Source: a virus. From it: 64,000 nt of DNA. The stretch is from positions 1 to 64,000 of the IMG/VR virus record IMGVR_UViG_3300010389_000004. One strand, written 5' to 3'. Below, in pieces: positions 3,236-62,131 of the stretch. Each line of letters begins with the position of its first letter. Positions within the stretch are counted from its first letter, which is position 1. Made by a program: the position numbers and the translations under genes. The notes under the pieces were generated by a model that was not told the origin of the DNA, did no database searches, and worked only from the letters and a program-made list of their open reading frames with translations.

Positions 3236-3385
3236 CAAGCCGTCCACCTGGACGACCACCAGCAAGGGCACCAAACAAGACCACGGGTGTGACGGGTATG
3301 GTCTCGCTCGCAAGATGGTGAGGACGGCTGATGGAGCAACCGTCCTCGTATGACGTTGGAGCCGTGAGGTTTCTCCGTTGCCATG
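3193..3385 (-). ncRNA. Structured leader RNA or sRNA (about 190 nt, 4 hairpins)
   Basis: Hairpins 3320-3347, 3272-3310 (4 G-U pairs only on minus), about 3239-3256, then terminator; promoter upstream. Confidence 0.6.
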
Positions 3386-25191: not shown

Positions 25192-28100
25192 CTATGGACG
25201 TGCGGTAGCTGGGGCTACTCCCAGACCAGACCCCGTGTGTCGGCGCAGGATATCTATGATTATATCAGCCCGCTCCACAATAGGACGATTCGCCTGGTGG
25301 AGGGTTTCAGCCACTTCCTTGATAGCTACGGTAGTGGACCCTGAAATCACACCTCGAATTTCTTCGGTGGATTCGATCGCAGAGTCAACCGACTCGTGGA
25401 CAGCACTGGCTGATGATTGCAGACGGCTGAGGAGGAATGATCCCAACGCCATGATCCCCACAGACAGCGTACTCATCGTCTCACCAAACGCACTGGTCAG
25501 CGAGTCCTTCAAACGAGTCTGCAAGCTAGCTGTGAACTCCTGCGTGAGCTGGTTACTGACATCGGTGAAGATCTTCTTGCCAATGCCGGCGGCGTAATGC
25601 ATCCACGCATTGAATCGAACACCGGCGGCATGAGCTTCTTTTCGAGCTTCGTGCATCCCTTCTACCAACGAGCCGTCGATCATTCCCGACAATGTGTCTT
25701 GTAGCGCCGAGCCCACAGACTTGACGATGTAGGAGTCAACCACAGGGGCAACATTGATCTTGTTCCCCATCTCCTGGATGCGTTTCTCCAACGCTGCACG
25801 AATGCGGTCAAACTCCTCGGGTGACATATTGTCGAAATTCAAGTCGCCCACAGGGACTTCGAAGCCTGCTTTGTTTGCCGCGTCAACAAACAGCGCTCGG
25901 GCGTCGATACTCTCCCCCGCTTTTGCTGCTTCAGCGGCTTGATCTTGTACCTCAGCCATGAGGTTGGAGAGCATTTGGGATTGCTCATACACAAACTCCT
26001 TGCTCTCGCGGGAGTCGAACTTGAACATCGCCAGATCCTTGGGACCAAGACCCAACGACTCGCGCTGTTGCTCGAAAATCCCCTTGCGTTTGAACTTCTC
26101 AACCTCACGCTGGGTCTTTGCCTCAGCCGCTTTGATTGCAGCTTCCCGGCGAGCGTGCATGATCGCCCGCTCTCGGAGCTTTTCGATGTTCGTGTACGAC
26201 TCAACCTCTGCGTCAAGCATCCCTGCTTGCTTCGCCATGAGGGTGATGACTTCCTTGTAGTACGATGTGCCACGGTACTGGTCGAGCTTCTCCAACGCCC
26301 CGCCCAGCGCAGCCTGCAAAACGGACGCCGGTGTGCCGACCTCATTTGCACTGATGCCGATAGCAGTGAGCACGTCGGCGCCGACCTCCTTTCGGGCGGC
26401 AAAGTGCTTCTTGGTATTCTCCAGGACGCGCTCGTACACGCGGATGGATTTATCCGTCAACACATCGGTGAGTTCAAGACCAACTCCTCTTTCACCCAAC
26501 ACATTGACAAAGATACTGTTCATTAGCTTCGTGACACGGTTCAGCTGCGCAGTACGGGATTTCGCAGAGGCCATGTCATCCTCTACCAAGGCCGTCTGTG
26601 CCATCTCTTGCCATCGCTGGCGCTCCGCAGCAAGCATCTCAAGCATCGTTATGATTACTGTCGATGTTCCTGCGTCCCGCACGACCCCAATACGATCTTT
26701 GGTTCTGGACGCCTCTTCAGGGTCTTTGAAGAGTTTCTGCAAAAGATCTTCTCGCTCAGAACGAGTGCTTCGCTCTACTGCTGAAATACGGTCATACTCG
26801 TCAACAATCCCTGCGAGCACCGAACGAGCCTCTTTACCTTTCATTGAGATGTTGAATATGCGCAGAGCCAACGACTGAGAGTTTTTGGCCTGTTCCTTAG
26901 CTCGTCGATTAGCGTCTTCCAAGGAGTCGCTGAATGCTGAAGTCTCGTCTGACGCACGTTTGATGAGATCCCCGTACTCCGACCAAATTTCTTTAGCGTT
27001 CGCACCAAGATCGTCTAGGAGGCTCGACACTTCTGGAGCTTCGTCTCTCATAATGGTCAGCGACTGATCCCAAGAATCTTCAATGTCCCGTGCCAGTTGC
27101 TGGTTACTCTCTGCGAAACGTTCCGCTAAGGCTTGCATCTCGCGGCGCTCGCCGAGGTCTGCATCATCAAAGTACCCTGTGCCGGCGGCGGCCAGGAACA
27201 TAGCCTTAATCATTTCGGATAGATCCGACGTGACCAGATCCAGCTTGGCTTTTTCCTCTTCAATCTTTTTGGTCAAGATATCCGAGCGTCTGAACAACTG
27301 GTTGGCGTCAAAGCTGGTTACTTTTAGCATCCCCTCAATGTACTCATCCCGAGAGGCTTTCTCCTCCAACTGCCTCTCAGCCTTAGCTAAGTCGATCTTG
27401 GCGAACGTGTCATCAAGCGTAGGTGCTACACCGTATTTCTCTTGCATCAAGGCCGACAGCTCAACATCTTCTTGGAGCTGTTTGATCTTTTCTCGCAGAG
27501 TCTTGTCAGTCCTATCCCAGTCTGCCCCAAACTCACCTCGAAGCTCATCGTACTCCGCCAGTGGACCGGACTTCAGATCGGACAACTCTTGCTCAAGTTG
27601 GGCTATACTAGCGCGAACCGCTTCAGCTTTGGCCTCTAGCTCTCCAGATGCAGATGCATCGAGTACGTATTTCAGGTTCTCATCTAGATTAGCTTGCAAC
27701 GCTTGAACCTTAGCTCGCGCCTCCTCAAACGAACGCTTCTCCAACCTAACGATGTTTTCGATAGGCAACTTGGAATCAGAACGCAGCTCATCGGAGAAAT
27801 CACGGCTCTTTTGCAGAACGCCTTCAGAGAATAGTTGGACAACCTCTTGCTTGAATTTGTCGGGGTCTATATTCGCGTCCCGGAGCTTGCTCAACAGATC
27901 TTCGTCAGTTACGCCTTCAGAAGACATGTACTTAGCAGCTCTCGATTTAAGTATGCGTTCGCGAGCTTCACGCATGTTCCGGTCTTCAACCTCTGACTGG
28001 ACTTCATAGAGCGCCTCTAGATCTTTCTGCGCTTCCTTACGGCGAATCTCAAAGTAGTGCGAATAGCTGCGACCCTCTGAGGTTGGGTTCATCTTCTCCT

Positions 28101-31100
28101 TAATCCAATCAAACCCAGCAGCAACGTACTGCCTGATTATAGCGGATATGTGCAACGCCTTTGTCTTCAGCCAGCTAACCACCTTTATGCGGGCGTTGGT
28201 TAGTGCGATCTCGACCTTTGCGTTAAACAACACAACCGCCATGTCAAACCCAAGCTTCACGCTTGTCCACACCCAGCGCCCAAACGCCATAGCTGAGTTC
28301 TTTACAAAAGACCAAACCCCATTGATCAGCGTTCGCAGATCTTTGAAGAAATTATTTCGACCTTCCGCAGCGTCGAAGTACCGGTCACGGATGAACTTGA
28401 CCACCATCTGCGCAGAGGTAGCCACGATCCTCGTAACCAACCGAACGCCGGCAACCAAACGAGTGAGAAGGTTCGGCACCTGTGTTTGGATGTCGTCGAG
28501 CCACCCCTCGGAAGCTTCCATGACTTCTTCAACCACCACCAAACGGATACGCTCAAACGCCTGCTTGATTTGAATGATGGTCTTCTGGATACGCTGTGCA
28601 CGCAGCACGGTCTCGTCAGTAACGAACGGAACCTTAGAGGCTTCGATCATGGCCTCTTTGATATTCACCGTGTCGTCCATCAACACGCCGCGGAGTGACC
28701 CGAACTGCGCACCAATAGTTTGCAGCAAGCGCTCCTGGTATTGCAGTGAGATGTTGCCGGATCGCACCGCTGACACGATCGACATAAAGATGTCAACGGG
28801 GTTCATGGTGTGAATCTGTTGGAGGTCAATGCCTATGCTGGCAAAGATCTCGCTCATCTCTCCAATACCGCCCTCTTGCTGGAGTTGGGTAATTGAGGAC
28901 TTCATCGAGATGAACGCCTGTTGGACTTCCATCCCGTTCGCACCCAACATCTCCATCGTGCGGGTGAGCCTATCGTAGTCCTTCACAGAGATGCCGGAGA
29001 TGTTTGCGTCCCTGCGCAAGTCCCTGATCTTGGCGGTCGCTTGGTCCAAAAAGTTGAACGCGCTTTGCAGAGCACGTTGGCCTTCAGAGATGACGGTACC
29101 AAACAACTCCCCGATCACTTTACCCAACACACCGATGACTTTGACAGGGAGGCCGATGAGTACCTTGGTGATGAGTCCCAAAACGCTAAGAAGCTTGTCC
29201 AGACCCGCGAACAAAAGCCTTACCGGCTCCGCCACCGCGCCGATAATCCTGCCAAAGAACCCAAACGCACTCACCGCTTTGAGAATCCCTTGTGACAGCG
29301 CGTTTGTGGCTGCCAGAAGCCCTTTGACCAGGTAAATCGGCGAAGCGCCCGCAGTGCCCAACACGGAGCCAGCGACGTTCATGGCTTTGGAAAACGCTGC
29401 GCCGCCTTGACGGAACATCGCAGAGAGACCTTCAGCAACTCCTGAAGCTCCCCCACCAAGCATCTGCTTGATGCCTTGGTAGAGTACGCCCGTACCCTTC
29501 TTCATCTGTTCAACCATGACAGGGAAGAAGGTGGACGACTTGATAAGAGCCTCACGGAGAGGACCCATTTTCGGCAGCGAGCTGGGGAAGAAGTTATTAA
29601 AGATGTATTGCAGGACACCAGCGAGATCCCGCATGGTTTTCGCCGTACTCTTCTCCATCTCCTGAATCATGGTCGGAAGCAAAGTTTGACCGGCGTGTTT
29701 GGCTTTCTTGAGGAGATCCTTGTCGTTGAATACCTTGCCGGCAATGTTCTTCAGCATGTCGTCGGTTATGCCCGCCCAAGCCCCCGTGGTTTGAGTACCG
29801 AGGCTGAAAGCGCCGAACTGGTTTGCAATCCTCCCCGGGTTGAACGGAAGACCGGCTTCGGCCATGATCTCGCTGAGAGGTTTTTGGCTACCCCCTCTCT
29901 TAGTGACCATCGCGTTCTGCGCGATGAAGTCTTTCATCCCCTCACTGGTTCTTATGCCCTGCTCAATCCCCTTCCGCACAGCCTGTACGATCGCGCTGAG
30001 CATCTTCGTCTGGTCCGGCAACGCTTTGAACTTTTCGAGGTGTTCCTTACTCGTCAAACCAGCAAGCTCCCCCACGCTGCGAGGGAAACCCCTCATACCC
30101 ATAGAGGCAAACGCTGTAATAAGCCCTGCGGGGCTTTTCTCACCGATCTGCTTGAGGCGTTCGACGGTCTCCTTCTCATTGACGCGAGCCTCATTACCAC
30201 TCATGCGGATAAACAACTTATCCAGCCCAGCGGCCATCTCCATAACGGCTTGAACGAGACTCTTGATGTCTGCGTCGTCAGCGTTGGCGTCCGTCAATAG
30301 CTCCTTCAAAACCTGGAGAACGTCCGAACTGCCGGAGAAGCCTTGGTGTGTTGAGTAAATCTTCTCCAAAGCCCTGTGTTTGGCGGTGTCAGAGCTAACA
30401 TCCGCTTTGAGAGTGCCCTCCGCGAAGTCTTCGTCTTTGGTGATCTTGCCGAGTCGTGCAATCTGCTTGAGGGTGGTGAACGAATTGCCTACCGCCAACC
30501 TACCGTCAGTGCTTTGCTTCGCCTTCTCTGCTTTCGCTGCTTCTTCGGCCTTCTTCACGGAGCCGGAGAAATCGTCAAGCTCCAGCTTGGCGTAGGTTAC
30601 GGACTCACCCATCTTGCGGAGGTGTTGCGCCAAGAAGTCCATCTTGGTATTCACACCCTCTTGCACGTCACGGTTGGCGACGAGTGTTTCGGTAGATAAC
30701 CCGAGCTTGGCGGTAAACTTCTCCAGAGCCGCTACAGTTTTCTGTGCGTCCTCAGCGCTCATCCCGAGCATCTGCTCCAGCAGGTTTTTGGCAGACTCGC
30801 CACCAGCCTTTGCGTTACGAGCCAGCGCCGTGAGTTCTGCTTTCTTGGCTTCAGCCTCAGCGAGCTTCTTGGCAGTCTCGCTATCCGCGAACGCCAAGTC
30901 AGCTTCGCCGGGCATAGCCTTTTGGAGCGCTACGATGAGCGCGTCGATGCGGCTGTCGAAGTTCTGGTTGCTGAGGTTCTGCCCCATGTTGCGGAGCCTG
31001 TCGGAGTGCTCCGTCGGAGACATCTTGGTTCTGTTCTCCTTGATGTCCCTGTAATCATTGAACGCCGCGTAGATCTCTTTATTCAGAGCCTTCGCGTTCT

Positions 31101-34100
31101 CCGAGACCTTCTTCAGTTCTTCGCGGGCAGAGTCACTGAGTCCGTTGTCTACGTCGTCAGCCGCTTTGTCCAAAACCTTGACGAAAGCCATAGCCTTGTC
31201 GGACATGTCGGTGATTACGCGCATGTAATCACCAAGCTCAGCAACCACCTTCGTGGCTTGCTCAAAGTGGTGATCACTGAACTCATTCAAGGTCTTCTCA
31301 GCGTCTGCCAGTGCCCTCTCGTACTTTGAAGCGTTTTGCAGCGAAGCATCCAACTGGTTGTTGGCCAACCACTCTCGCTCCGCACGGGCGATCTCCACCT
31401 TCTTACGTCGATCGAACAGCGCCTTGTCCGCTTCGGCCTGGGTCTTCTCTTGCGCGAGCTGGGCGGCGAGCTGGTCAGACATCTTCTCTTCGGCGTCCAA
31501 GCGGGCGTTGTAGGCATCAGCCGCCCGCTTACTTGCTTCCGGTGCAGCCTTCTGTTGGAAGGCTTTACGTTCTTTTCGCGTGATAGACTCGGGCTTGCCT
31601 TTCTTACGAAGCTTCTTCTCCTCTTCCAGTGCTTGGGTGAGTTCCCCCTCCACTTTTTTGAGTTCCCCAGAGCCAGAGGTCTGCTTTTGCAAAGCCTCTT
31701 CATACTCGTTGTACACGGCGCCCAAGTGTACCTGCGCGGCCTCCAACGCCCTCAACCGTTGGGTGAAGGTCTGGTACTTCTCACGATGGTTGCTGAGAAC
31801 AGCAAACTGCTTGGCGTATTCCCCCGCAAGCTTCTCTGCCCACTCCTTCAACGGGGCAATCTGGGTCTCTTTGACACTGACCTCTTGCCCTTCCTCGCCG
31901 TAGGGGTTGTACTTATTGAAAGCGCCTTTCGTGGTAACACCGCTGAGCTTCGAGTACCGAGTCGGGTCGATTGACTTGAGCAATGAGATGAATTCAGAAA
32001 CCACACTCTTTCGAGTACCAGCACCTTCCTCACCGGTAAACTCTGAGATGGCCTCTGCCGCAGTCTTCAACAGTGAGGCGGACTCTTTCAATCGGAGGTA
32101 GGCTTCTTCACTGGCACCCACATAGTTATCGCCGTCTTGAACATCCATCAGCAACTGGTTCATGCTTTGGATCTCTTTGGAGGTCCTCATCTCCAATCTG
32201 CGGATCGCGTTTTGCTTACCCTCCAGGTCGCCCTTACCTTTGTCAGAAGCTTCGAATTTATTTAGATCTTTGCCGAGCACACGGTAAAACTTCCGAACGA
32301 TCTCCACCTGCTCGTTGGCGAGGGTGACTTGCTCCGCTTCGAGCATCTTGCGACGACGGCGGATTTCACGGATTTCCTGCTGCTTGTTCTTGACGTCCTG
32401 CCTTCTCGCGTCGTCATCCTTCTTAGCCTTCTCAGCACGACTGGCCTTCTCTGCCTCAACCTGCTCTTTGGTCATCTGCTTGAGAATTCGACGCTCATCC
32501 CTCTTCTTCTCCTTGGAGAGATTCTTAGCGGACTCCGCCAGTTTCTCATGGTGCTCCTTCAGGGCACGCTCTGCGGTCTCCAACTCGTGCTTCTTCAGCT
32601 CCTCTTCTTTCTTGTACTTCTGGCGGAGAAGGGCTCGCTCTTCCTGGAATTTCTTGATGCGACGCGCTTTATCAACCTCCGCTTCCGAAGGCCCGCCACC
32701 CGCACCCCCCGTGAGGAACTTTTGAATAGCTGAGACCGCTCGGGTAACACCACCAAAACCAGAGCGCAGTTTTTGAACTTGCTCATCAAGCTTCTCAAAC
32801 GCCCCACCTAACGGAGTGAGCGTACTGTCCTGCATCTTCTTGATAACCGCCGTGTATTTGTCCACACGAGCAGAGGCGAGCTTCAGAGCAACATTCAGCT
32901 TGTCCAGCGCGTCATTGCCGGCTTTTGAAGCTTCGAGCTGTTCCTTCTCCGCCTTTTCACGCTCTTCGGCGTTCTTGCCTTGGGCTTTCCCAAAACCTCC
33001 GGGAGAAAGGAACCGGAACCCTTTTCGGACCTTATCCAGAATGAAATCGGATACAGCTTTGGCACCGCCCGCCGCTTTCTCGCCGGTACTGTCGATGCTC
33101 TCTCCGTCATACCCTTTGAGGGATTTTCCTTTTTCCTTCGACCAACGACCCAAGCGGCCGGGGAGCAATGCACCACCTACCTGCGCGAGCCCCTTCGCCA
33201 GACCCTTGGTGCTCTCACGGACACTACCAAAAATCTTGCCCACCTTATTGGCGAGCCCTTGCCCGAGCTTGCCCAGAATCATCAGGGAAGTCTCAGTGAC
33301 TGCCGAGAGGGGTGCGAGAGCGCCGCGGTAGAAGAACTTCACCATCCCGCCCAACGTTTGGAAATACCCACGCACGGCGGTCTTCATCAGGTTGATGGAC
33401 GCTTTTGCACTGAAGGGTGAAACCAGGATTGCTCCAACGGTGTTCATCACCGATCGGATAGGCCCAACCACAAACCCTTGCATAGCATCGTCGAGGAGCA
33501 TTCCGAATTCTCGGAAAGAGGTGAGTACGTTTTTGAACTTATCAACGAACTCAGAACCGGCGAGCTTCGCTACCCCGTCCATGAACTTGGCAGTGTATTT
33601 TCGGATGCGTCGTGCTGCGCCGAGGTAGACGTTCTCAAACAGACTGGCAAACACATCCACCATGTCGGTGAGTTTGGCGTTTGCTTGGCGCTTGAGCCTT
33701 GTCGCCAACCAAGCGAAGAAGGCAACCTCTTTCTTCAAAGCCTTCCACCGCATCTGCATCTGTTCGTAGATGCCGGCAGCCAAACCAGTTGCGAGGTTCC
33801 TTGCACCTTTGATGACAAACGGTGCGGCGACGACACCAGCAATACCGATCGCCGAAGCCCCGCCCGTCCCAAAGATAGACGCCAGCAGCCCGCCATTAGC
33901 AAACGAGTTGCCGGCTGCCAACCCACCGGAGAACGCGGCCGCGATCGCAGACACCGCTCCCGTAATCCCACTGGTGATGGTTCCGTCGATAATGGAACGG
34001 AAGATCATGACGATGGGTGAGTTGTATATGACGGCACCCATCATGTCGAACCCAGACACCACAAACCCAGGCATTGTGGTCAAGAAGAAGGTCTTGATAG

Positions 34101-35682
34101 CACCCACCGCGGCAGCCGGTGCTTGTCCCGAAAACAACAGCGCTCCAAGAACACCGCCCGTGATAGGTGCGGCGGGGCCGATAACCATCGACATGGTTTT
34201 GTAGATGGTCTCAGCGATCGAGCCCATCGACTTCTTGAACTCTCCTGATGACTCCTGCAACCGCTTAGCCGGCTGCGTCGTCAGGGACATGATGGACTTC
34301 ATGCGGGCGTTGACTGTGCGCTTCTCTTCCTCGTAGCGCTCCCGCGTCGTTTTCACATTCTCTTCTTCAGTTTCACGCTGCTCTCTCAGCACAGCCGCCA
34401 TTTTGGTGCCGCTGCTGATATTCTTCTGCGTGCCGCGGTCAACCAGCTTGAGGTTGCTAGCCATCTCAACCAGGCCAGCCACGAGCGATTTGAGTATGCC
34501 CTCCAGTTTGACACCCAGGGCGAAGATACCCTGCACCGACTTGTCGAGGTTCTCCAACGAGGTCATGGCGGATTTCAGGCGAGCGCCCATACCCGCCGAG
34601 CCGCGAATCATCTTGGCGATCTCTTTGCCTCTTGTAGCGAGGGCTTCGAGAATCGGCCACATCTGACGCAGAGACTGGAGGAAGAGCATCGTAGCCGCAC
34701 GGCCGTCGCCAGCTTGCGCACGGATACGCACGATCGACCTGCGGAGCACGGTGAACAGCGCCTGAATCCCGATGAGACCAGTCGAGATAAACGACAACAT
34801 CGGGAACACGAGGCTCCCCAACCCTGTGATAGAGCCGGTCAGTAAGCCTACCCCCGAAACCACCGTCGAGAGGATTGACGCAGCGTAGTAGAGCTTGGAG
34901 ATCACAACGTCAGACGTCAAGTTGATCTGCACAAGACCTTTGTTGATGGCCATTACCAGATCTCGAATCTGGCTGACCAGACCTCCGATATTACGCTTGA
35001 ACACAAGCCCGATAATCCCACCAAGGGAGAAGCGCATAGCCCCGAAGATACCGGAGGCTAGTGTGAGCCCCCCGAGCATTGATGTCAGCCCGTTGGAGAG
35101 CTTGTTCATCATCTCTACGGTGCCGCTCACCTTGTCGGTGATCCCGACGATGTTCTTCCACAAGGCTAAGGTGCCGCCTAGCAGACCCCCGCCGAGGGCT
35201 TTCATAATACCCCCTATGGAGTATTGAATTTCCTCGGTGTGTTCGGAGATATGCCGCACCGTCTCCTGGATGATAAACCCGAGCCCGAGGATCTTACCCA
35301 AGGACGCCGGAGTAAATCGGTCGAGGAAGTCCCCGACCTTCCCGAAGACACGTTCCATACGGCTTTCGGTCTGCGCTGCGCCATTCTCAAGGTCACGAGC
35401 CAACCCTTGCTGGAACTGCTTGCGGACGTTCCCCATCCGCGCATCCAAACTGTCAAAGATGGTTTCAATTACGAAACCTGCTTTTTTGAATTGGGTGGTG
35501 ATCTCAGAGATATTGGCGGTCATTGACCGAATCGAGCGGTCAAGGCCGTCATCAAGCTCTACTTTGATGACGGCCTTTTTTGAGGCGAAGGCGGTGAGTT
35601 GTTTGCTGAGGGAGTCGAGCTTTTCGAACACGTTGCCCATGTTCGTCACAAAGTCGATCTGAACCTGTCCAACTGAACTCAT
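25192..35682 (-). CDS. Tail tape measure protein (about 3,496 aa)
   Basis: Follows the frameshifted chaperones; helical with Ala/Gly-rich hydrophobic segments; PSSLPKMGPL motif; AGGAG SD before ATG 35682. Confidence 0.9.
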   Translation of the reverse strand: MSSVGQVQIDFVTNMGNVFEKLDSLSKQLTAFASKKAVIKVELDDGLDRSIRSMTANISEITTQFKKAGFVIETIFDSLDARMGNVRKQFQQGLARDLENGAAQTESRMERVFGKVGDFLDRFTPASLGKILGLGFIIQETVRHISEHTEEIQYSIGGIMKALGGGLLGGTLALWKNIVGITDKVSGTVEMMNKLSNGLTSMLGGLTLASGIFGAMRFSLGGIIGLVFKRNIGGLVSQIRDLVMAINKGLVQINLTSDVVISKLYYAASILSTVVSGVGLLTGSITGLGSLVFPMLSFISTGLIGIQALFTVLRRSIVRIRAQAGDGRAATMLFLQSLRQMWPILEALATRGKEIAKMIRGSAGMGARLKSAMTSLENLDKSVQGIFALGVKLEGILKSLVAGLVEMASNLKLVDRGTQKNISSGTKMAAVLREQRETEEENVKTTRERYEEEKRTVNARMKSIMSLTTQPAKRLQESSGEFKKSMGSIAETIYKTMSMVIGPAAPITGGVLGALLFSGQAPAAAVGAIKTFFLTTMPGFVVSGFDMMGAVIYNSPIVMIFRSIIDGTITSGITGAVSAIAAAFSGGLAAGNSFANGGLLASIFGTGGASAIGIAGVVAAPFVIKGARNLATGLAAGIYEQMQMRWKALKKEVAFFAWLATRLKRQANAKLTDMVDVFASLFENVYLGAARRIRKYTAKFMDGVAKLAGSEFVDKFKNVLTSFREFGMLLDDAMQGFVVGPIRSVMNTVGAILVSPFSAKASINLMKTAVRGYFQTLGGMVKFFYRGALAPLSAVTETSLMILGKLGQGLANKVGKIFGSVRESTKGLAKGLAQVGGALLPGRLGRWSKEKGKSLKGYDGESIDSTGEKAAGGAKAVSDFILDKVRKGFRFLSPGGFGKAQGKNAEEREKAEKEQLEASKAGNDALDKLNVALKLASARVDKYTAVIKKMQDSTLTPLGGAFEKLDEQVQKLRSGFGGVTRAVSAIQKFLTGGAGGGPSEAEVDKARRIKKFQEERALLRQKYKKEEELKKHELETAERALKEHHEKLAESAKNLSKEKKRDERRILKQMTKEQVEAEKASRAEKAKKDDDARRQDVKNKQQEIREIRRRRKMLEAEQVTLANEQVEIVRKFYRVLGKDLNKFEASDKGKGDLEGKQNAIRRLEMRTSKEIQSMNQLLMDVQDGDNYVGASEEAYLRLKESASLLKTAAEAISEFTGEEGAGTRKSVVSEFISLLKSIDPTRYSKLSGVTTKGAFNKYNPYGEEGQEVSVKETQIAPLKEWAEKLAGEYAKQFAVLSNHREKYQTFTQRLRALEAAQVHLGAVYNEYEEALQKQTSGSGELKKVEGELTQALEEEKKLRKKGKPESITRKERKAFQQKAAPEASKRAADAYNARLDAEEKMSDQLAAQLAQEKTQAEADKALFDRRKKVEIARAEREWLANNQLDASLQNASKYERALADAEKTLNEFSDHHFEQATKVVAELGDYMRVITDMSDKAMAFVKVLDKAADDVDNGLSDSAREELKKVSENAKALNKEIYAAFNDYRDIKENRTKMSPTEHSDRLRNMGQNLSNQNFDSRIDALIVALQKAMPGEADLAFADSETAKKLAEAEAKKAELTALARNAKAGGESAKNLLEQMLGMSAEDAQKTVAALEKFTAKLGLSTETLVANRDVQEGVNTKMDFLAQHLRKMGESVTYAKLELDDFSGSVKKAEEAAKAEKAKQSTDGRLAVGNSFTTLKQIARLGKITKDEDFAEGTLKADVSSDTAKHRALEKIYSTHQGFSGSSDVLQVLKELLTDANADDADIKSLVQAVMEMAAGLDKLFIRMSGNEARVNEKETVERLKQIGEKSPAGLITAFASMGMRGFPRSVGELAGLTSKEHLEKFKALPDQTKMLSAIVQAVRKGIEQGIRTSEGMKDFIAQNAMVTKRGGSQKPLSEIMAEAGLPFNPGRIANQFGAFSLGTQTTGAWAGITDDMLKNIAGKVFNDKDLLKKAKHAGQTLLPTMIQEMEKSTAKTMRDLAGVLQYIFNNFFPSSLPKMGPLREALIKSSTFFPVMVEQMKKGTGVLYQGIKQMLGGGASGVAEGLSAMFRQGGAAFSKAMNVAGSVLGTAGASPIYLVKGLLAATNALSQGILKAVSAFGFFGRIIGAVAEPVRLLFAGLDKLLSVLGLITKVLIGLPVKVIGVLGKVIGELFGTVISEGQRALQSAFNFLDQATAKIRDLRRDANISGISVKDYDRLTRTMEMLGANGMEVQQAFISMKSSITQLQQEGGIGEMSEIFASIGIDLQQIHTMNPVDIFMSIVSAVRSGNISLQYQERLLQTIGAQFGSLRGVLMDDTVNIKEAMIEASKVPFVTDETVLRAQRIQKTIIQIKQAFERIRLVVVEEVMEASEGWLDDIQTQVPNLLTRLVAGVRLVTRIVATSAQMVVKFIRDRYFDAAEGRNNFFKDLRTLINGVWSFVKNSAMAFGRWVWTSVKLGFDMAVVLFNAKVEIALTNARIKVVSWLKTKALHISAIIRQYVAAGFDWIKEKMNPTSEGRSYSHYFEIRRKEAQKDLEALYEVQSEVEDRNMREARERILKSRAAKYMSSEGVTDEDLLSKLRDANIDPDKFKQEVVQLFSEGVLQKSRDFSDELRSDSKLPIENIVRLEKRSFEEARAKVQALQANLDENLKYVLDASASGELEAKAEAVRASIAQLEQELSDLKSGPLAEYDELRGEFGADWDRTDKTLREKIKQLQEDVELSALMQEKYGVAPTLDDTFAKIDLAKAERQLEEKASRDEYIEGMLKVTSFDANQLFRRSDILTKKIEEEKAKLDLVTSDLSEMIKAMFLAAAGTGYFDDADLGERREMQALAERFAESNQQLARDIEDSWDQSLTIMRDEAPEVSSLLDDLGANAKEIWSEYGDLIKRASDETSAFSDSLEDANRRAKEQAKNSQSLALRIFNISMKGKEARSVLAGIVDEYDRISAVERSTRSEREDLLQKLFKDPEEASRTKDRIGVVRDAGTSTVIITMLEMLAAERQRWQEMAQTALVEDDMASAKSRTAQLNRVTKLMNSIFVNVLGERGVGLELTDVLTDKSIRVYERVLENTKKHFAARKEVGADVLTAIGISANEVGTPASVLQAALGGALEKLDQYRGTSYYKEVITLMAKQAGMLDAEVESYTNIEKLRERAIMHARREAAIKAAEAKTQREVEKFKRKGIFEQQRESLGLGPKDLAMFKFDSRESKEFVYEQSQMLSNLMAEVQDQAAEAAKAGESIDARALFVDAANKAGFEVPVGDLNFDNMSPEEFDRIRAALEKRIQEMGNKINVAPVVDSYIVKSVGSALQDTLSGMIDGSLVEGMHEARKEAHAAGVRFNAWMHYAAGIGKKIFTDVSNQLTQEFTASLQTRLKDSLTSAFGETMSTLSVGIMALGSFLLSRLQSSASAVHESVDSAIESTEEIRGVISGSTTVAIKEVAETLHQANRPIVERADIIIDILRRHTGSGLGVAPATARP

Positions 35683-35696
35683 GCTGTTGACTCCTG

Positions 35697-36377
35697 TCAG
35701 GAGGACACCAGGCCCTCCCAATTCTTCTCAATTCGCGCAATCTCCTGCTCAGATAGCTCGGTTGCGCTACGTTCCGCTTCTTCCCAGGTCTTCCCGCTGA
35801 CATCCCCGACAGACCAGGGCGAGTCAATCTTCCGACCCGTGAACTTCGCCATCGCTGCATCCAATTTACGCGCCATCTGCAACACCTTGACCTGCTTAGC
35901 CCGCAGCTTGTCTTCCTCAGCCTGCTGCTTGCGCTCAACGGGACTGGGGTTTTTGCTGGAGAAGAGAAATTCCAGCTCCCGGTCCATGTCGCTGATGCTG
36001 TTGTCCAACGATTCGTTGAACTCCTTGGCGTGTTTGGCGGCCTCTTTGCTTAGAAGTCCTGCCAACGACAAAGAGAGAGCGCCTTGTAGTCGACGTCCCT
36101 CTTCCAGTTTGGATTTTATGCAGAGCATGATGTGAGCTTTGAACTGCCCGAGGGTCATGCTCTCCCGCATTTCTGCTAGTCCGAAACCGTTTCGGACTAG
36201 CAGGTTCTCTCCCGTCAGAACGCTTAGCTCTGATCCGAATCCGTCTTCTTCTTCGCCTTCTTCGGAACTTCCTTGCCCTTCTCCGCGTCCATCGGCTCGT
36301 TCGTCGGCAGCGCCTCCTCGTCCGTCGTCTCCTCGCTCTTCTTCTTCTTCGGAAGCGCCTGAGCGAAAAGTTTTCCC
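35697..36377 (-). CDS. Tail assembly chaperone, -1 frameshift extension (gpGT-like)
   Basis: The -1 frame is open from the slip site through ...ENLLVRNGFGLAEMRESMTLGQF to the stop at 35697. Confidence 0.82.
   Translation of the reverse strand, partial: GKTFRSGASEEEEERGDDGRGGAADERADGRGEGQGSSEEGEEEDGFGSELSVLTGENLLVRNGFGLAEMRESMTLGQFKAHIMLCIKSKLEEGRRLQGALSLSLAGLLSKEAAKHAKEFNESLDNSISDMDRELEFLFSSKNPSPVERKQQAEEDKLRAKQVKVLQMARKLDAAMAKFTGRKIDSPWSVGDVSGKTWEEAERSATELSEQEIARIEKNWEGLVSS
36173..36203. other. Perfect 14-bp hairpin directly upstream of ATG 36170
   Basis: ctgctagtccgaaa-ccg-tttcggactagcag. Confidence 0.85.
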
Positions 36378-58036: not shown

Positions 58037-60007
58037 TCAGCCCATCCTAGCGTTGATGTACGCTTGGTGGAAGTCGTTATCTGTCTCCTGACGGTTGTGC
58101 TCAACCTTGGCGTAGAGTGCTGGGTTTGAACGCACCATCTCTTCCAAAGCGGCTTGTGCGCCAAGACCTCGTGAGACGTTGAAGGACATTCTCTGTAGAA
58201 CAGCCAAGCCATCCACAATTGAGTCCACACAGTCATCGTGAGCGCCTGAAGGGAAAGCACACAGCTCGTCGATCGCTGCGTCAACCGAGGGGTTACGCTG
58301 CCCTGGCAGCAGATTGAAGGGCGCTGCCCATTCCCCACGTTCGAAAATGGGAGAAACGCCGAGGGCTCGGGTGGTCTTTGAATTGTTCCCGCGCTTCACC
58401 TCATACACCGGAGCGTGAAACCCAAGGCGGATGCTCAACTCATTGAGGGAATCAGCCAAGGCTTTTTGGAATGCCACGGATTCCACGAGAAAACCCAGGT
58501 GATGGAACGCGAATGCTTCCTCAGCGACGCCCTTACCCACCGTACCTGATCCCCAATACGACGCGCCTACTCGATTCGAGTAATAGACGTAGTGCTTGAA
58601 CATCAACATCATGATGCCAGCCATCGTGGTTCTGACGCGATCGACATCAAGCAGGTAGTATTTGCGTGTGCGGATTGAATAGCCCTGGGTGACGATAGCC
58701 GTGAAGTCATTATCGGCTTCTTCTGCACGCTTACCTCGTGAACCAGCAGGGTCCAATGAGGTAATGCAGATCAGGTCATCAGGCAGAACCTCCAGATTGA
58801 GGTTATTCATTTCCAGGTGGCGGAGTACGTTATCAGGTAATTCCTCACCCTTGCGCACCCAATACTTGATCCATGCTCGGTGGACGTATTTCGTTGCGTC
58901 ATCCACAGGCTCCAGCATGAATTCCTTCTGGAAAGCCCGAGACCCCAAGTCTCTCAATTTCCAGGATAGGTACGGGAGGTAGTAGATCGGCTGATTGGTC
59001 GCTTGCCGGTAAGCGAGTTCGGATTCGGTGAGTGGGTTACGCCATTCATCAATTGGGCGTAGAGGATCCATCGCTCCGTACTTTTGCTCCCACAACGGGT
59101 TTATGGGCAAGCCTTGCTCAGTGAATCCCTCACACGCTGGTTGCTTCGTCTTGATCCAGTTCGTTGTCCTGCGCTTGTCTTTCCATAAGCGCATAACCAG
59201 ATCGTCCTCATGCACGGTCGTACCGATGACGATGATATTGCCCACGCCAAGAGAGGGCACGTTGGATAGCGCTCCCCAGAACCAGTCCCATAACGACTCT
59301 CTAACCTTCACTGATTTGACGTGCTTGTCCTCAATGATGTCATCCAAGATGAGTAGGTCAGGACGCACGGATACCAGGTTGTTATAGATCGGCTGACCAT
59401 ACCGGTTCTTGGTGACGTAGCCTGAAGGCAAGTCATCCGGGAAGGACTCGTTGGCACCACGGAGCGCACCACCTGTTGAAGCTGAGAATACGGCTACCTG
59501 GTTGGTGGTTCTCAGGTACTTGTGACGCCAGCCTTGCTTCTTGGCTCCGCCAGTTTCGGTGTCGCCTACCAAGTCTCCGAAAGCCTTTCGGATTACCTCG
59601 TTCTGCTCAAGCTCCATTCGAATCTTGCCAAGGAAGCGCTCAGCGTTTCCTGACGTGCTGGAGATGACGCCGATGTACCGACGCTTGCGGTAGCAGACGC
59701 ACCAGAGCACATACGCAAAAGAGACCACGGTGGATTTGCCGTGATCTCGTGGAACGAGCTTCAGGAGGTGTTTGCCGTTCTTGAGTGTTTGTAGGTCTTG
59801 GATCAACCCCGAGTGAAAGGGTGCGAAGTGCTCTGAGAAGTGACCCGCCAGGAATACCCTACAGAACATCTTGAACGAGCCAGCACACAGCAAGGTCCAC
59901 TCTTTGAGAGTGTACTTGGAGAAGTCAACCTTGACCGGATCGAGGACGGCTGGGGACATACTGCTTTTCTCTACGACGACAACAGAGACCGAATAGAGTG
60001 CCGTCAT
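58037..60007 (-). CDS. terL: Terminase large subunit
   Basis: PRDHGKST Walker A, LLILDDIIED Walker B, VIGT, FQKEFM, SLDPA, DNDFTA, FPSGAHDDCVDS; start may be 59959. Confidence 0.95.
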   Translation of the reverse strand: MTALYSVSVVVVEKSSMSPAVLDPVKVDFSKYTLKEWTLLCAGSFKMFCRVFLAGHFSEHFAPFHSGLIQDLQTLKNGKHLLKLVPRDHGKSTVVSFAYVLWCVCYRKRRYIGVISSTSGNAERFLGKIRMELEQNEVIRKAFGDLVGDTETGGAKKQGWRHKYLRTTNQVAVFSASTGGALRGANESFPDDLPSGYVTKNRYGQPIYNNLVSVRPDLLILDDIIEDKHVKSVKVRESLWDWFWGALSNVPSLGVGNIIVIGTTVHEDDLVMRLWKDKRRTTNWIKTKQPACEGFTEQGLPINPLWEQKYGAMDPLRPIDEWRNPLTESELAYRQATNQPIYYLPYLSWKLRDLGSRAFQKEFMLEPVDDATKYVHRAWIKYWVRKGEELPDNVLRHLEMNNLNLEVLPDDLICITSLDPAGSRGKRAEEADNDFTAIVTQGYSIRTRKYYLLDVDRVRTTMAGIMMLMFKHYVYYSNRVGASYWGSGTVGKGVAEEAFAFHHLGFLVESVAFQKALADSLNELSIRLGFHAPVYEVKRGNNSKTTRALGVSPIFERGEWAAPFNLLPGQRNPSVDAAIDELCAFPSGAHDDCVDSIVDGLAVLQRMSFNVSRGLGAQAALEEMVRSNPALYAKVEHNRQETDNDFHQAYINARMG

Positions 60008-60021
60008 AGTGCGGGTGTGTC

Positions 60022-60516
60022 AAATGAGAAAGCCCGGACCGGGCGAGGAGATCCGGGCTTCTCGATGCAGGCTCGCGCAGGGAAGAGCTGCAAGCCTGCT
60101 TGGTGCAGGAGACACGGGCAACGTCTCCTGTTTGGGTCTCCCCTCCCACCACAGATGGGAGACCCGTCTGCTCGTCTCGGGGCTAGGAGACGAGCAAGGT
60201 GAGGGTGGTAGAGTGTTGGGGGCTACCACCCTTGTGAGACTGCCTGCCTTTCCCCGTGCGGGCAGTCTCGTGTCGGCATTCTCCACAGGGATGCGAAACC
60301 TGCGTGCTCCTGCCGACAAAATAAGGAGCGGGTGAGTGGCTGATGAGGTGCAGATGACCACCCACCCTGAACCCCGTGGTGACTCCTCATGACGGTCTGT
60401 GTGTGCGTTCCACACCATGAGAAGTTGTACCTACACAGTACGAGGGTCTGAGGGTAAGTTACGTTTACTGAGTTCCTCATGCAATAGGAAAAGCCGTCCA
60501 TGGGCAGGACGGCTCT
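60022..60516 (-). ncRNA. Candidate large multi-hairpin non-coding RNA
   Basis: 11 stems of 8-11 bp; G-U pairs mostly favour the minus strand; bounded by two terminator-like hairpins; no credible ORF. Confidence 0.65.
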
Positions 60517-60623
60517 CACTACGGGCTGTAACTACGAGTTGAGTGCAGCGATGACCTGGACAGCGTTGGGTGGAACACTCGGTCTTTCTCGCCCATTATC
60601 GTAGCCAGGCTCCTGAGGGTTGC

Positions 60624-60815
60624 TCAATACTCGAACTCGCCCACCCACTTCCTACGCAACAGCGCCTCACGCGTTGACTGATGCATCAGCTTTACCAGGG
60701 CATCATCTTGTCGCTCGGCTTCCTCATACCACTCCCCTATCGAGTAGAATTCTGGCTGGTCGGAGTCTTCAGGCAGCAGCCAGGCGAACACTGAAGCTGT
60801 TGCGTCGTAGCCCAC
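60624..60815 (-). CDS. Small hypothetical protein
   Basis: GTG start with GGAG SD. Confidence 0.55.
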   Translation of the reverse strand: MGYDATASVFAWLLPEDSDQPEFYSIGEWYEEAERQDDALVKLMHQSTREALLRRKWVGEFEY

Positions 60816-60969: not shown

Positions 60970-61396
60970 TGAGTGCGTCCTCGATCAACTCAATCAGAGG
61001 GAGGTGGATTTGAATGCCATGCGCTCTGTATTCGACCCCCGAGTGTTTACCCAGTACCTGCGCTGAAGCACACCAGACCTCTTGGGGGTCTGTATCGTTT
61101 GGAGATTTGATAAGGCGACGCACAAACTCCAGCTTGAGAGAAAAGAGCTTACCGATACTCGCTAGCCTCAGCAGCATGTCATAACAGAGTATGGCATAAG
61201 CGACTTCAGGAGGACACGACGCGAAAATCCCTATACCCTCTTCTCCTTTTCCCTCACCACGACGGTCTGCTACCAAGGCTTCGCCGAATCCCCAGAGGAT
61301 CCCCATATTGCCGGCGCCGCCCCCAAACTCGGGCAAATCCCACTCCAGTTTCGTGTACAGGTCGGTGATGTCCGCCAGGGCTTGTTTGAAATCCAC
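60959..61396 (-). CDS. Hypothetical protein
   Basis: Packed minus-strand ORF. Confidence 0.65.
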   Translation of the reverse strand: MDFKQALADITDLYTKLEWDLPEFGGGAGNMGILWGFGEALVADRRGEGKGEEGIGIFASCPPEVAYAILCYDMLLRLASIGKLFSLKLEFVRRLIKSPNDTDPQEVWCASAQVLGKHSGVEYRAHGIQIHLPLIELIEDALNVR

Positions 61397-61398
61397 AG

Positions 61399-61653
61399 CT
61401 ATTCCATTTCATGCAAGAGATCTACTGACCGGAGGAGTTTGGTCTTCAGGAGGTCAGGTAGGTTTTTGTGCTCCGCCGATTCCTGACAACCAGCCTTCTC
61501 CAACGTATCCAACATATCGAGAAACGTGGAGAGCTTTTCTGGGTAAGGTAATACCAACACGCCTGTTTTGCGAGCCTTCCTGACCCGCTCGATCATGTCC
61601 GATAGGGAGATGATATCGCCTGGTCTTCCACCTCTACCTTTGGGCATCGTCAT
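61399..61653 (-). CDS. Hypothetical protein
   Basis: Packed minus-strand ORF. Confidence 0.55.
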   Translation of the reverse strand: MTMPKGRGGRPGDIISLSDMIERVRKARKTGVLVLPYPEKLSTFLDMLDTLEKAGCQESAEHKNLPDLLKTKLLRSVDLLHEME

Positions 61654-62131
61654 TACCCCAAGCTTTTATTTCTGGAGTCCCCTCAGAAACGTCCACTGAG
61701 AGAAAGACGCGATGGTCTTCTCGCATTCGACAGGTGTATTGTCTGATTACGGACATGTACGCTCGGTGGGGGTATTCGCCAGAAATGTTGTAGCTCCCCA
61801 TGTCCTCTACTGCGTTATCGTAGAAATACACTTTGCCCACCAGTGCTTCCCTGTTTGGGAGTTCTTTATTGATGACGATATGCCCGCACTTCAGCGTATG
61901 GACTACTTCAAAAGCCCAATTCATCAGGTCAAACGTGAAGAGTGCGATAGCAGCGTCATCAGAAATACCTTGTGGTTGTCCGTCGTTCCCGACAGTCGCG
62001 TGAAACCTTCCCCAGAAGAAGTAAGCGGGCAAAGAAGACTTGACCGGGCTCGTCTTGCCATAATCAGGCTGCTCACGGTTATGCTCTTCGTAGAAGCTCT
62101 TGATATCTCGTAGTTCTTGTCCGTGGTTCAT
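61634..62131 (-). CDS. Hypothetical protein (possibly distantly related to 60959-61396)
   Basis: ATGA-coupled start at 62131; AAIALFTFDLM resembles VAYAILCYDML. Confidence 0.65.
   Translation of the reverse strand: MNHGQELRDIKSFYEEHNREQPDYGKTSPVKSSLPAYFFWGRFHATVGNDGQPQGISDDAAIALFTFDLMNWAFEVVHTLKCGHIVINKELPNREALVGKVYFYDNAVEDMGSYNISGEYPHRAYMSVIRQYTCRMREDHRVFLSVDVSEGTPEIKAWGNDDAQR

What the first reader, a model, noticed from the sequence alone, without database searches (positions are those of the whole stretch)
60030..60367. C-rich, anti-SD-like loops and possible loop-loop partners in the hairpin array
Seen on minus: loops UCCUCGCCC, CUCUUCCC, UUGCCCG, CUAGCCCC, CCCCCAACAC, GCACCUCA and linker CUCCUUA. 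Two loops are G-rich (ACGGGGAAAG, UGUGGUGGGAG); ACGGGGAA can pair with UUGCCCGU at 7 of 8 positions. The 3.3-kb leader also has C-rich loops. Established: S. aureus RNAIII and RsaE use C-rich loops to block ribosome binding sites. Inference: either a multi-target translational silencer or kissing loops for folding or oligomerisation.
Basis: partly seen in the sequence, partly recalled or inferred. Interest (0 to 1): 0.7.

Follow-up and report, generated by a model that had tools for sequence, protein, structure and literature searches.

The report
Orphan ten-hairpin RNA before phage terminase
An uncultured aquatic phage carries a unique, non-coding string of ten strong hairpins bounded by transcription stop signals just before its DNA-packaging gene; the loops really are C-rich, but the proposed ribosome-site silencing and loop-to-loop kissing get little statistical support.

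Summary
The window is part of a 94-kb phage contig. On the minus strand, 60425-60026 holds ten different hairpins. An intrinsic terminator (T0) precedes them. Two of the ten (H1, H9) also look like terminators. The large terminase gene starts 66 nt downstream, at 59959, not 60007.

The fold is far stronger than chance (z -7.8). The 132-codon ORF over it is non-coding by codon statistics. No other cluster of this kind occurs in the genome, in 1.2 Mb of terL-related loci, or in three related phage genomes.

They are more C-rich (42% vs 23%) and longer than the loops of the phage's 22 other intergenic hairpins. Shuffles of the array's own composition give the same unpaired C content.

Anti-SD motif counts, pairing to phage ribosome sites and loop-loop complementarity are all at chance level. 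The one independent hint is a sub-threshold Rfam match of H7-H9 to ar14 (the 'cuckoo' anti-SD sRNAs). The '3.3-kb leader' is a chain of small coding genes.

No homologue exists, so the covariation test could not be run. My best reading is an accessory structured RNA that displays its loops and also throttles entry into terL. Earlier notes of this scan report structured RNA arrays before terminase genes in other phages; I did not check them.

The parts
60481..60526 (-). T0: intrinsic terminator closing the upstream small-gene operon (stop codon at 60624). Loop UGCCCAU, followed by a U-rich tail.
   Evidence: -22.4 kcal/mol on minus, -17.0 on plus
60456..60484 (-). Putative sigma-70-like promoter, TTGCAT-N17-TAACTT, filling the gap between T0 and the first helix. 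Inferred only; the consensus scan did not call it.
   Evidence: read from the sequence; one search found no promoter at its threshold
60382..60425 (-). H0: outer helix CUUCUCAUGG/UCAUGAGGAG with an inner 5-bp hairpin
60318..60375 (-). H1: 16-pair hairpin with a 16-nt loop containing CACCUC. CUCCUUA spans its closing 3' arm and the UUAUUUU tract (60324-60318) that follows, so it looks like a terminator.
   Evidence: sequence
60271..60318 (-). H2: 8-bp outer helix, internal loops carrying AGGAG and GGAGAA, and an inner hairpin
60236..60269 (-). H3: 9-bp stem with GAGAC/GUCUC and a G-rich loop (ACGGGGAAAG)
60202..60232 (-). H4: perfect 10-bp stem, loop CCCCCAACACU
60168..60197 (-). H5: 10-11-bp stem, loop CUAGCCCC
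60134..60165 (-). H6: 9-bp stem plus 3 inner pairs, G-rich loop (UGUGGUGGGAG)
60106..60130 (-). H7: 9-bp stem (AGGAGAC/GUCUCCU), loop UUGCCCG. First hairpin of the sub-threshold ar14 match.
60067..60099 (-). H8: 12 pairs, loop with CUCUUCCC (7 of 9 to the cuckoo motif CCUCCUCCC)
60016..60063 (-). H9: 14-pair GC-rich hairpin, loop UCCUCGCCC, then UUUCUCAUUUG. Terminator-like end of the unit, at the place where related phages keep a single terminator.
59960..60015 (-). Variable spacer between H9 and terL. A co-occurring strain differs at six positions in 59997-60015, one of which destroys the ATG at 60007.
58037..59959 (-). terL (large terminase, 640 aa), first gene of the structural module. The start is at 59959, as in P0001.

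Best explanation
It is a lineage-specific, non-coding RNA unit of about 425 nt, roughly 60449 to 60021 on the minus strand. It sits in the leader slot of the packaging/structural operon.

Shown:
- It does not code for protein.
- It folds into ten independent, very stable hairpins joined by linkers that are mostly 2-6 nt.
- It runs in the same direction as all flanking genes.
- It starts just after one terminator (T0) and ends in another (H9). H1 is a further internal terminator-like hairpin.

Inferred:
- It is transcribed by host RNA polymerase from a weak sigma-70-like promoter in the gap after T0.
- The stems form a nuclease-resistant scaffold. Its job is to display loops of 7-16 nt, mostly C-rich, as binding sites for G-rich RNA (Shine-Dalgarno-like sequences of host messages) or for an RNA-binding protein. 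That would make it a trans-acting silencer or sponge built like the cuckoo/ar14, sX13 or RNAIII RNAs.
- Because terL lies 66 nt behind H9, H1 and H9 would also throttle how much transcription enters the packaging genes.
For: RNA on the minus strand:
- z -7.8 on minus vs -4.7 on plus.
- Summed hairpin energies are -212.7 on minus vs -188.9 kcal/mol on plus.
- U-tracts follow T0, H1 and H9 only in the minus orientation.

Non-coding:
- The ORF over the array scores -0.21 per codon, against 0.47 +/- 0.13 for real genes, and has flat GC by codon position.
- It matches no Pfam or PHROG family.
- None of 5.8 billion proteins resembles it.

Accessory and orphan:
- No array occurs in 160 terL-related loci or in three whole related genomes.
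- Related phages carry a protein gene plus one terminator in this position.

Loops are special:
- They are more C-rich and longer than the loops of the phage's 22 other intergenic hairpins.

Resemblance to anti-SD sRNAs:
- ar14 matches H7-H9 at 32.5 bits, E 1e-5 in this genome, and is absent from relatives.
- Hairpin size, stem length and most linkers fit the published cuckoo definition (PMC4615179).

The sequence is real: contigs of other metagenome runs also carry the array, one of them identical over 60046-60388.
Against: - There is no expression data, and no RNA run holds the stretch.
- The promoter is weak (3 of 6 in each hexamer) and was not called by the scan.
- Anti-SD motifs are not enriched over shuffles.
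- Loops do not prefer phage ribosome sites.
- Their SD pairing is no stronger than that of control loops of similar length (P 0.14).
- Unpaired C content equals that of shuffles of the same composition.
- The ar14 score is well below the cut-off, and the shared loop motif that defines cuckoo RNAs is absent from most hairpins.
- Two loops are G-rich.
- Several stems are perfect Watson-Crick palindromes that fold equally well on either strand (H3-H5).
- No homologue exists to show that loops or stems are under selection.
Confidence: 0.35

Rival explanations
1. It is a purely cis-acting leader and insulator of the late/packaging operon. Three stacked terminators (T0, H1, H9) plus stable hairpins keep early transcription out of terL until an antitermination or read-through mechanism acts. 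They also protect the long untranslated leader from nucleases and Rho. On this reading the loops have no function of their own.
For: - The array lies exactly at the junction between the replication/small-gene region and the structural module, which is all on one strand.
- All four close relatives have a strong terminator directly before terL. In L082 and L003 the terL TTG start abuts the terminator tail, with the SD inside the 3' arm, so terL there must be reached by read-through.
- The structural module contains many internal terminators.
Against: - Relatives manage with one hairpin. Ten hairpins, and loops that are unusually long and C-rich for this phage, are left unexplained.
- No Q-type antiterminator family was found.
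- Seven of the ten hairpins lack U-tracts.
Confidence: 0.3
2. It is a DNA-level signal, such as a packaging (pac/cos) recognition region or a replication/recombination site made of cruciform-prone palindromes at the usual place upstream of the terminase genes.
For: - It sits directly upstream of terL.
- No small terminase was recognised.
- H3-H5 and H7 are perfect palindromes equally stable on both strands.
- GAGAC/GTCTC occurs 8 times against 0.9 expected, in the stems of four neighbouring hairpins.
Against: - Overall strand asymmetry favours the transcribed strand.
- U-tracts are oriented.
- The palindromes all differ, and the GAGAC copies have variable spacing and orientation, which does not suit one DNA-binding protein.
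- Known pac/cos sites are not hairpin arrays (established knowledge).
- The available runs are kept as contigs, so no read ends could be seen.
Confidence: 0.1
3. It is a self-associating scaffold RNA. G-rich loops (H3, H6) kiss C-rich loops within or between molecules to compact the RNA or build multimers, as in phi29 pRNA or ROOL/GOLLD cages.
For: Two G-rich and six or seven C-rich loops can form pairs of 7-8 bp, for example H3-H8 at -16.0 and H6-H9 at -13.6 kcal/mol.
Against: - Shuffled loops pair as well (P 0.75 and 0.11).
- There is no Rfam match to pRNA, ROOL or GOLLD.
- terL is a normal nuclease-bearing terminase.
Confidence: 0.05
4. It has no present function. It would be a residue of recombination at a module boundary, or palindromes created and perfected by template switching, tolerated in a variable slot.
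For: - It is an orphan, absent from all relatives.
- It sits next to a mosaic breakpoint: the other strain diverges sharply from 61059 onward.
- Several stems are perfect, with no wobble pairs.
Against: - Ten hairpins at z -7.8 joined by short linkers, bracketed neatly by terminators, are hard to obtain without selection.
- No difference inside the array was listed in other metagenome runs, while a neighbouring spacer and gene vary (only 40 of 127 differences were listed, so this is likely rather than certain).
Confidence: 0.1

Closest known systems
Cuckoo RNAs / alpha-r14 (Rfam RF02344; CcsR1-4 of Rhodobacter, NfeR1 of Sinorhizobium; PMC4615179)
   Same: Adjacent hairpins of 24-50 nt with variable stems, short linkers and a terminator at the end. 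C-rich, anti-SD-like loops. Tandem clusters that can add up to 8-9 hairpins. H7-H9 align to the whole ar14 model.
   Different: The score is 32.5 bits against a cut-off of 58.8. The defining shared loop motif CCUCCUCCC reaches only 7 of 9 in H8 and H9 and is absent elsewhere. Two loops are G-rich. There is no DUF1127 neighbour. It lies in a phage of unknown host, not in an alphaproteobacterial chromosome.
S. aureus RNAIII / RsaE and Xanthomonas sX13 (C-rich loop sRNAs that pair with G-rich ribosome sites; named in PMC4615179)
   Same: Multi-hairpin RNAs that present C-runs in loops: UCCC in H8, CCCC(C) in H4 and H5.
   Different: No Rfam match to these families. There is no single recurring loop motif. 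No target preference was seen among phage ribosome sites.
Late-operon leaders of lambdoid phages (pR'-6S RNA-tR', read through with Q; a slot that also holds tRNA and other RNA genes); IsrK of Gifsy-1 (PMC4825925, as named in note e1-6070445)
   Same: A short terminated transcript made just upstream of the late/packaging genes. Downstream genes are reachable only by read-through. The slot is known to accept RNA genes.
   Different: No Q-like protein was found. Ten hairpins are far more structure than those leaders have (from established knowledge). The phage is unrelated to lambdoids.
cabRNA of staphylococcal phages (PMC10686824)
   Same: A structured phage RNA of about 400 nt arising at the terminase genes, whose hairpins matter for protein binding.
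   Different: cabRNA overlaps the terS-terL coding sequence, has no defined hairpin-string architecture, and is known as a trigger of host CBASS, not as a phage tool.
phi29 prohead RNA (pRNA; PMC5066667)
   Same: A phage non-coding RNA tied to the packaging machinery that uses complementary loops to multimerise. It is the analogue behind the 'kissing loop' idea.
   Different: No Rfam match. The loop complementarity here is at chance level. This phage has a classical large terminase with a nuclease domain.

Membership tests
Rfam RF02344 ar14 / cuckoo RNA | Covariance-model score at or above the gathering threshold (58.8 bits) | tested here: not met
   32.5 bits on 60137-60025 minus
Rfam RF02344 ar14 / cuckoo RNA | 2-4 (or more) adjacent hairpins of 24-50 nt, helices of at least 6 bp, linkers of at most 10 nt (PMC4615179) | tested here: met
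   Hairpins are 25-51 nt with 9-16 pairs. H2-H9 are joined by 1-6 nt linkers; the H0-H1 gap is 6 nt and the H1-H2 gap is about 6 nt.
Rfam RF02344 ar14 / cuckoo RNA | Every hairpin loop carries the motif CCUCCUCCC | tested here: not met
   The best matches are 7 of 9 in H8 and H9. The other loops lack it and two are G-rich. The motif with up to 2 mismatches is at chance frequency in the window.
Rfam RF02344 ar14 / cuckoo RNA | Alphaproteobacterial genome, commonly downstream of a DUF1127 gene | tested here: not met
   It lies in a phage contig. The upstream small ORFs have no Pfam match. The host could not be identified.
Intrinsic (Rho-independent) terminator (T0, H1, H9) | GC-rich hairpin directly followed by a U-rich tract on the transcribed strand | tested here: met
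   H9 was called by the scan. Function was not assayed.
Anti-SD translational silencer (RNAIII / RsaE type) | Accessible loops complementary to ribosome binding sites of targets | tested here: inconclusive
   Four unpaired segments give -6.5 to -10.7 kcal/mol with a consensus SD, against -18.5 for a 16S tail. There is no preference for phage ribosome sites. Host ribosome sites are not available.
Kissing-loop / multimeric RNAs (phi29 pRNA, ROOL, GOLLD) | Family covariance-model match, or loop-loop complementarity beyond chance | tested here: not met
   No Rfam match. Shuffled loops pair as well.
Retron msr-msd RNA | A reverse transcriptase encoded in the same genome | tested here: not met
   No RVT_1 match in the 94 kb held, which is an estimated 78% of the genome.
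Lambda-type Q-antiterminated late leader | A Q-family antiterminator gene in the genome | tested here: not met
   PF06530, PF03589 and PF06323 are all absent. A divergent or novel factor cannot be excluded.
Protein-coding gene (for example a small terminase) | Coding codon usage, GC periodicity by codon position, homologues | tested here: not met

The most novel reading that the evidence does not exclude
The hairpin string is a packaging-associated scaffold RNA that stands in for the missing small terminase. It would sit where related phages have a protein gene, and its G-rich and C-rich loops would let copies assemble on the terminase or portal, a pRNA-like solution in a terminase-type phage.
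Probability: 0.04. Interest if true: 0.9.

Novelty: new variant of a known kind. Interest (0 to 1): 0.45.

Why it matters
If this RNA is made and acts through its loops, it would be a phage-borne relative, by design rather than descent, of the bacterial anti-Shine-Dalgarno sRNAs. That would be a compact tool for a virus to damp host translation or soak up an RNA-binding protein.

If it acts only in cis, it shows an unusually elaborate triple-terminator gate on packaging genes in a phage clade that appears to reach terL by read-through.

Either way it adds to a pattern this scan keeps noting: the slot just before terminase genes collects structured, uncatalogued RNA modules.

Its value is limited for now. 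It is an orphan, its host is unknown and there is no expression data.

Tried and rejected
I therefore could not fetch the DNA around TerL relatives known only as proteins, nor the 9,653-nt contig of the sister strain.
- Read laying listed only 40 of 127 differences. That the array is identical in the sister strain is likely but not proven. One low-depth contig has a 1-nt insertion in the H9 loop.

Searches for homologues of the array, all blank:
- blastn against phage records (the second was a wasted call)
- blastn and a hairpin-cluster scan of 160 terL-related loci
- DNA search of three related genomes and a hairpin-cluster scan of those whole genomes
- neighbour-gene searches in viral contigs
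- protein search with the ORF that overlies the array

Host identification failed:
- TerL, PolA and capsid against cultured phages gave at most 26% identity or nothing.
- Two scans of bacterial genomes found nothing.

Other blanks:
- No RNA holder was listed among public runs.
- Rfam at gathering thresholds: nothing in the 64 kb.
- tRNA/tmRNA: none.
- Reverse transcriptase: none. Q antiterminators: none.
- The relatives' upstream gene has no homologue in this genome and no family match, so I cannot say whether it is a small terminase.
- Aligning H9 with the relatives' pre-terL terminators gave no convincing homology. I claim only positional equivalence.
- Two literature searches for phage hairpin arrays found nothing relevant.

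Readings rejected:
- CRISPR-like, ToxI-like or REP-like repeats: the hairpins share no repeat unit.
- RNase III sites: the stems are too short.
- Rho loading site: too structured, and C exceeds G only slightly.

Full report
**What the window is.** The window is the first 64 kb of a 94,081-bp linear IMG/VR phage contig, estimated 78% complete.
- Almost all genes from 94 kb down to 13 kb are on the minus strand. Replication genes come first, then about eleven small coupled ORFs (63.8-60.6 kb), then the structural module.
- The structural module starts with the large terminase: Terminase_6C, E 1.8e-5.
- The real terL start is the ATG at 59959 (640 aa, identical to P0001), not the first in-frame ATG at 60007. 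A co-occurring strain has lost the ATG at 60007.
- The phage is very far from cultured phages. TerL and PolA reach at most 26% identity and the capsid protein has no match. Its host is unknown.

**Anatomy.** The gap between the last small ORF (stop at 60624) and terL is 664 nt.
- On the minus strand it begins with an intrinsic terminator, T0 (60526-60481).
- About 45 nt follow, which can hold a weak sigma-70-like promoter (TTGCAT-N17-TAACTT, 60484-60456). This is my reading; the scan did not call it.
- Ten hairpins, H0-H9 (60425-60026), come next, joined by short linkers: 1-6 nt between H2 and H9, about 6 nt around H1.
- With its extended stem, H1 is followed directly by UUAUUUU. H9 is followed by UUUCUCAUUUG. 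The unit therefore contains an internal and a terminal terminator-like hairpin.
- terL starts 66 nt after H9.

**Is it more than chance?** Yes.
- The 431-nt stretch folds at -214.6 kcal/mol against -160.7 +/- 6.9 for dinucleotide shuffles, z -7.8. The plus strand gives z -4.7.
- Summed single-hairpin energies are -212.7 on minus and -188.9 kcal/mol on plus. H0, H1, H2, H6, H8, H9 and T0 favour the minus strand. H3-H5 are perfect palindromes that slightly favour the plus strand.
- Five of the genome's 33 perfect hairpins of at least 9 bp lie within 240 nt here.
- No other 350-400-nt stretch holds four or more hairpins, whether in this genome, in 160 terL-related loci (1.2 Mb) or in three complete related contigs (282 kb).
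- It is not an assembly artefact. A 9,653-nt contig from another run spans it, and a second run has a contig identical over 60046-60388.

**Coding or not.**
- The 132-codon ORF that happens to stay open across the array scores -0.21 bits per codon. Real genes in chunks of the same size score 0.47 +/- 0.13 with a minimum of 0.05.
- Its GC content is flat across codon positions.
- It has no Pfam or PHROG match, and no protein among 5.8 billion resembles it.
That part of the finding is wrong.

**The loops.** All the listed loop sequences are correct. Whether they are 'C-rich' depends on the control.
- Against the loops of the phage's 22 other intergenic hairpins on the same transcribed strand, they are clearly different: C 42% vs 23% (P 0.004), CCC in 6/11 vs 1/22 (P 0.002), median length 8 vs 5 nt.
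- Against shuffles of the array's own composition they are not: unpaired C is 35% vs 33 +/- 2%.
- The signal can equally be stated as 'the array RNA has C above G (138 vs 118), whereas this strand of the genome has G above C'.

**Anti-SD reading.**
- CUCC/CCUC occurs 8 times against 5.8 +/- 2.6 expected (P 0.25). The 5-mers occur 5 times against 2.0 (P 0.09).
- SD-like GGAG/GAGG is enriched just as much: 8 vs 3.5 (P 0.04). Much of it is paired with the CUCC-type runs inside stems.
- Four unpaired segments pair moderately with a consensus SD: the H1 loop, the segment spanning H1's closing arm and U-tract, H8 and H9, at -6.5 to -10.7 kcal/mol. A 16S tail gives -18.5. This does not differ from control loops of similar length (P 0.14).
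- No loop binds the 105 predicted phage ribosome sites better than internal control windows. The best targets fall within the shuffled-loop range.
- The one independent hint came from Rfam in E-value mode. H7-H9 align end to end to ar14 (RF02344) at 32.5 bits, E 2e-4 locally and 1e-5 for the genome. The consensus loops of ar14 carry CUCCUCCUCCC-type motifs. Weaker matches go to the betaproteobacterial toxic sRNA and to anti-hemB.
- ar14 gives nothing in three related phage genomes.
- The score is far below the 58.8-bit cut-off. The model may largely be rewarding 'three hairpins plus a terminator'.
- The published definition of this 'cuckoo' family is 2-4 adjacent hairpins of 24-50 nt, linkers of at most 10 nt, variable stems, and the same CCUCCUCCC motif in every loop (PMC4615179). 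The geometry fits here, but the shared motif does not.

**Kissing loops.** The ACGGGGAA/UUGCCCGU pair exists but ranks sixth. The best pairs are H3-H8 (-16.0) and H6-H9 (-13.6 kcal/mol). Shuffling each loop gives pairs as long (P 0.75) and nearly as stable (P 0.11). This alternative has no support beyond what a mix of G-rich and C-rich loops yields by itself.

**Comparison with relatives.**
- The closest TerL relatives (38-53% identity) have no array.
- The three closest lineages share a gene of 240-356 aa directly upstream of terL. It has no homologue in this genome and no family match.
- In all four close lineages, one strong terminator stands just before terL.
- In L082 and L003 the terL TTG start follows the terminator tail within a few bases, and the SD lies in the hairpin's 3' arm. 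There terL can only be reached by reading through that hairpin.
- H9 occupies the same position here. I could not show sequence homology between H9 and those terminators.
- H0-H8 are therefore a lineage-specific addition in a variable slot.
- A sister strain shows six substitutions packed into 59997-60015 and heavy divergence from 61059 onward. No difference was listed inside the array. Only 40 of 127 differences were shown, so this is probable, not certain.

**How it most likely works.** I put about 0.8 on function at the RNA level on the minus strand. Within that I cannot cleanly separate two readings.
- Trans-acting display RNA (0.35). This explains the most features: an accessory orphan, its own terminator, long C-rich loops unlike the phage's ordinary terminators, and the ar14 resemblance.
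- Cis-acting leader or insulator (0.30). This is backed by position, by three stacked terminators, by the conserved pre-terL terminator in relatives, and by a second terminator-ended leader in the same genome (note e1-6070445; I re-folded it). It leaves the number of hairpins and the nature of the loops unexplained.
- The two are compatible: a terminated product could act in trans while read-through feeds terL.
- The remaining rivals are a DNA-level packaging or replication signal (0.10), a self-associating scaffold (0.05) and no function (0.10).
- Retron-like and Q-dependent versions were checked. The required reverse transcriptase and Q proteins are absent from the 94 kb held.

**Novelty.** The array has no Rfam family and no homologue anywhere I could search. 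A multi-hairpin RNA with C-rich loops, and an RNA gene in the leader of late or packaging genes, are both known kinds. I therefore rate it a new variant of a known kind. Earlier notes of this scan describe structured RNA module arrays before terminase genes in other phages (e1-3133955, e1-3754682). I did not verify them, but they suggest this slot is a recurrent home for such RNAs.

Noticed in passing
window 60106-60269: The 5-mer GAGAC/GTCTC occurs 8 times in the array against 0.9 expected from the rest of the genome. It is always inside the stems of H3, H5, H6 and H7, often as GGAGAC/GUCUCC. Genome-wide it is not avoided (207 vs 199 expected). This could reflect a shared origin of these hairpins, SD/anti-SD-like stem composition, or a recognition motif.
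   Followed up: partly
window 60481-60526 and 3238-3329: The T0 stem (AGCCGUCC/GGACGGCU) recurs as the same two 8-10-mers about 80 nt apart in the structured leader before the helicase operon (9-mer at 3329, 10-mer at 3246). AGGGTGGTA is shared between H4 and that leader's promoter region. It may be chance (about 0.5 shared 9-mers expected) or a common recognition element.
   Followed up: partly
L082:4933-4967 and L003:4849-4886: In two related phages the terL start codon is a TTG placed a few bases after a 12-bp terminator hairpin whose 3' arm contains the SD (AGGGAG / AGGGGG). The hairpin would therefore both stop transcription and mask the terL ribosome site.
   Followed up: partly
window 59997-60015 and 61059-61960: A co-occurring strain (9,653-nt contig) differs at six positions within 19 nt of the H9-terL spacer, and by roughly 20% from 61059 onward inside the 145-aa gene. 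This points to a recombination mosaic boundary beside the array.
   Followed up: no
window 58037-60007: The mechanical ORF for terL starts at 60007, but the start used by gene callers, and kept in the sister strain, is 59959. The SD there is weak (GAGAAAAG).
   Followed up: yes
window 25192-35721: A 3,509-aa minus-strand ORF in the structural module has no Pfam match at E 0.001.
   Followed up: no
window 60325-60344: The 3' arm of H1 and the bases that follow read UCACCCGCUCCUUA followed by U's. This resembles the 3' end of 16S rRNA (UCACCUCCUUA) with a 3-nt insert, so an RNA terminated at H1 would end in an anti-SD-like tail.
   Followed up: partly
L002:4029-4751, L003:3657-4727, L082:3818-4837: The gene that replaces the array in the closest relatives has a variable, proline/glutamine-rich middle and a conserved C-terminal block (…VRASQ.Y…NLGN…SH.AYL…). 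It has no family match; it could be an unrecognised small terminase.
   Followed up: partly
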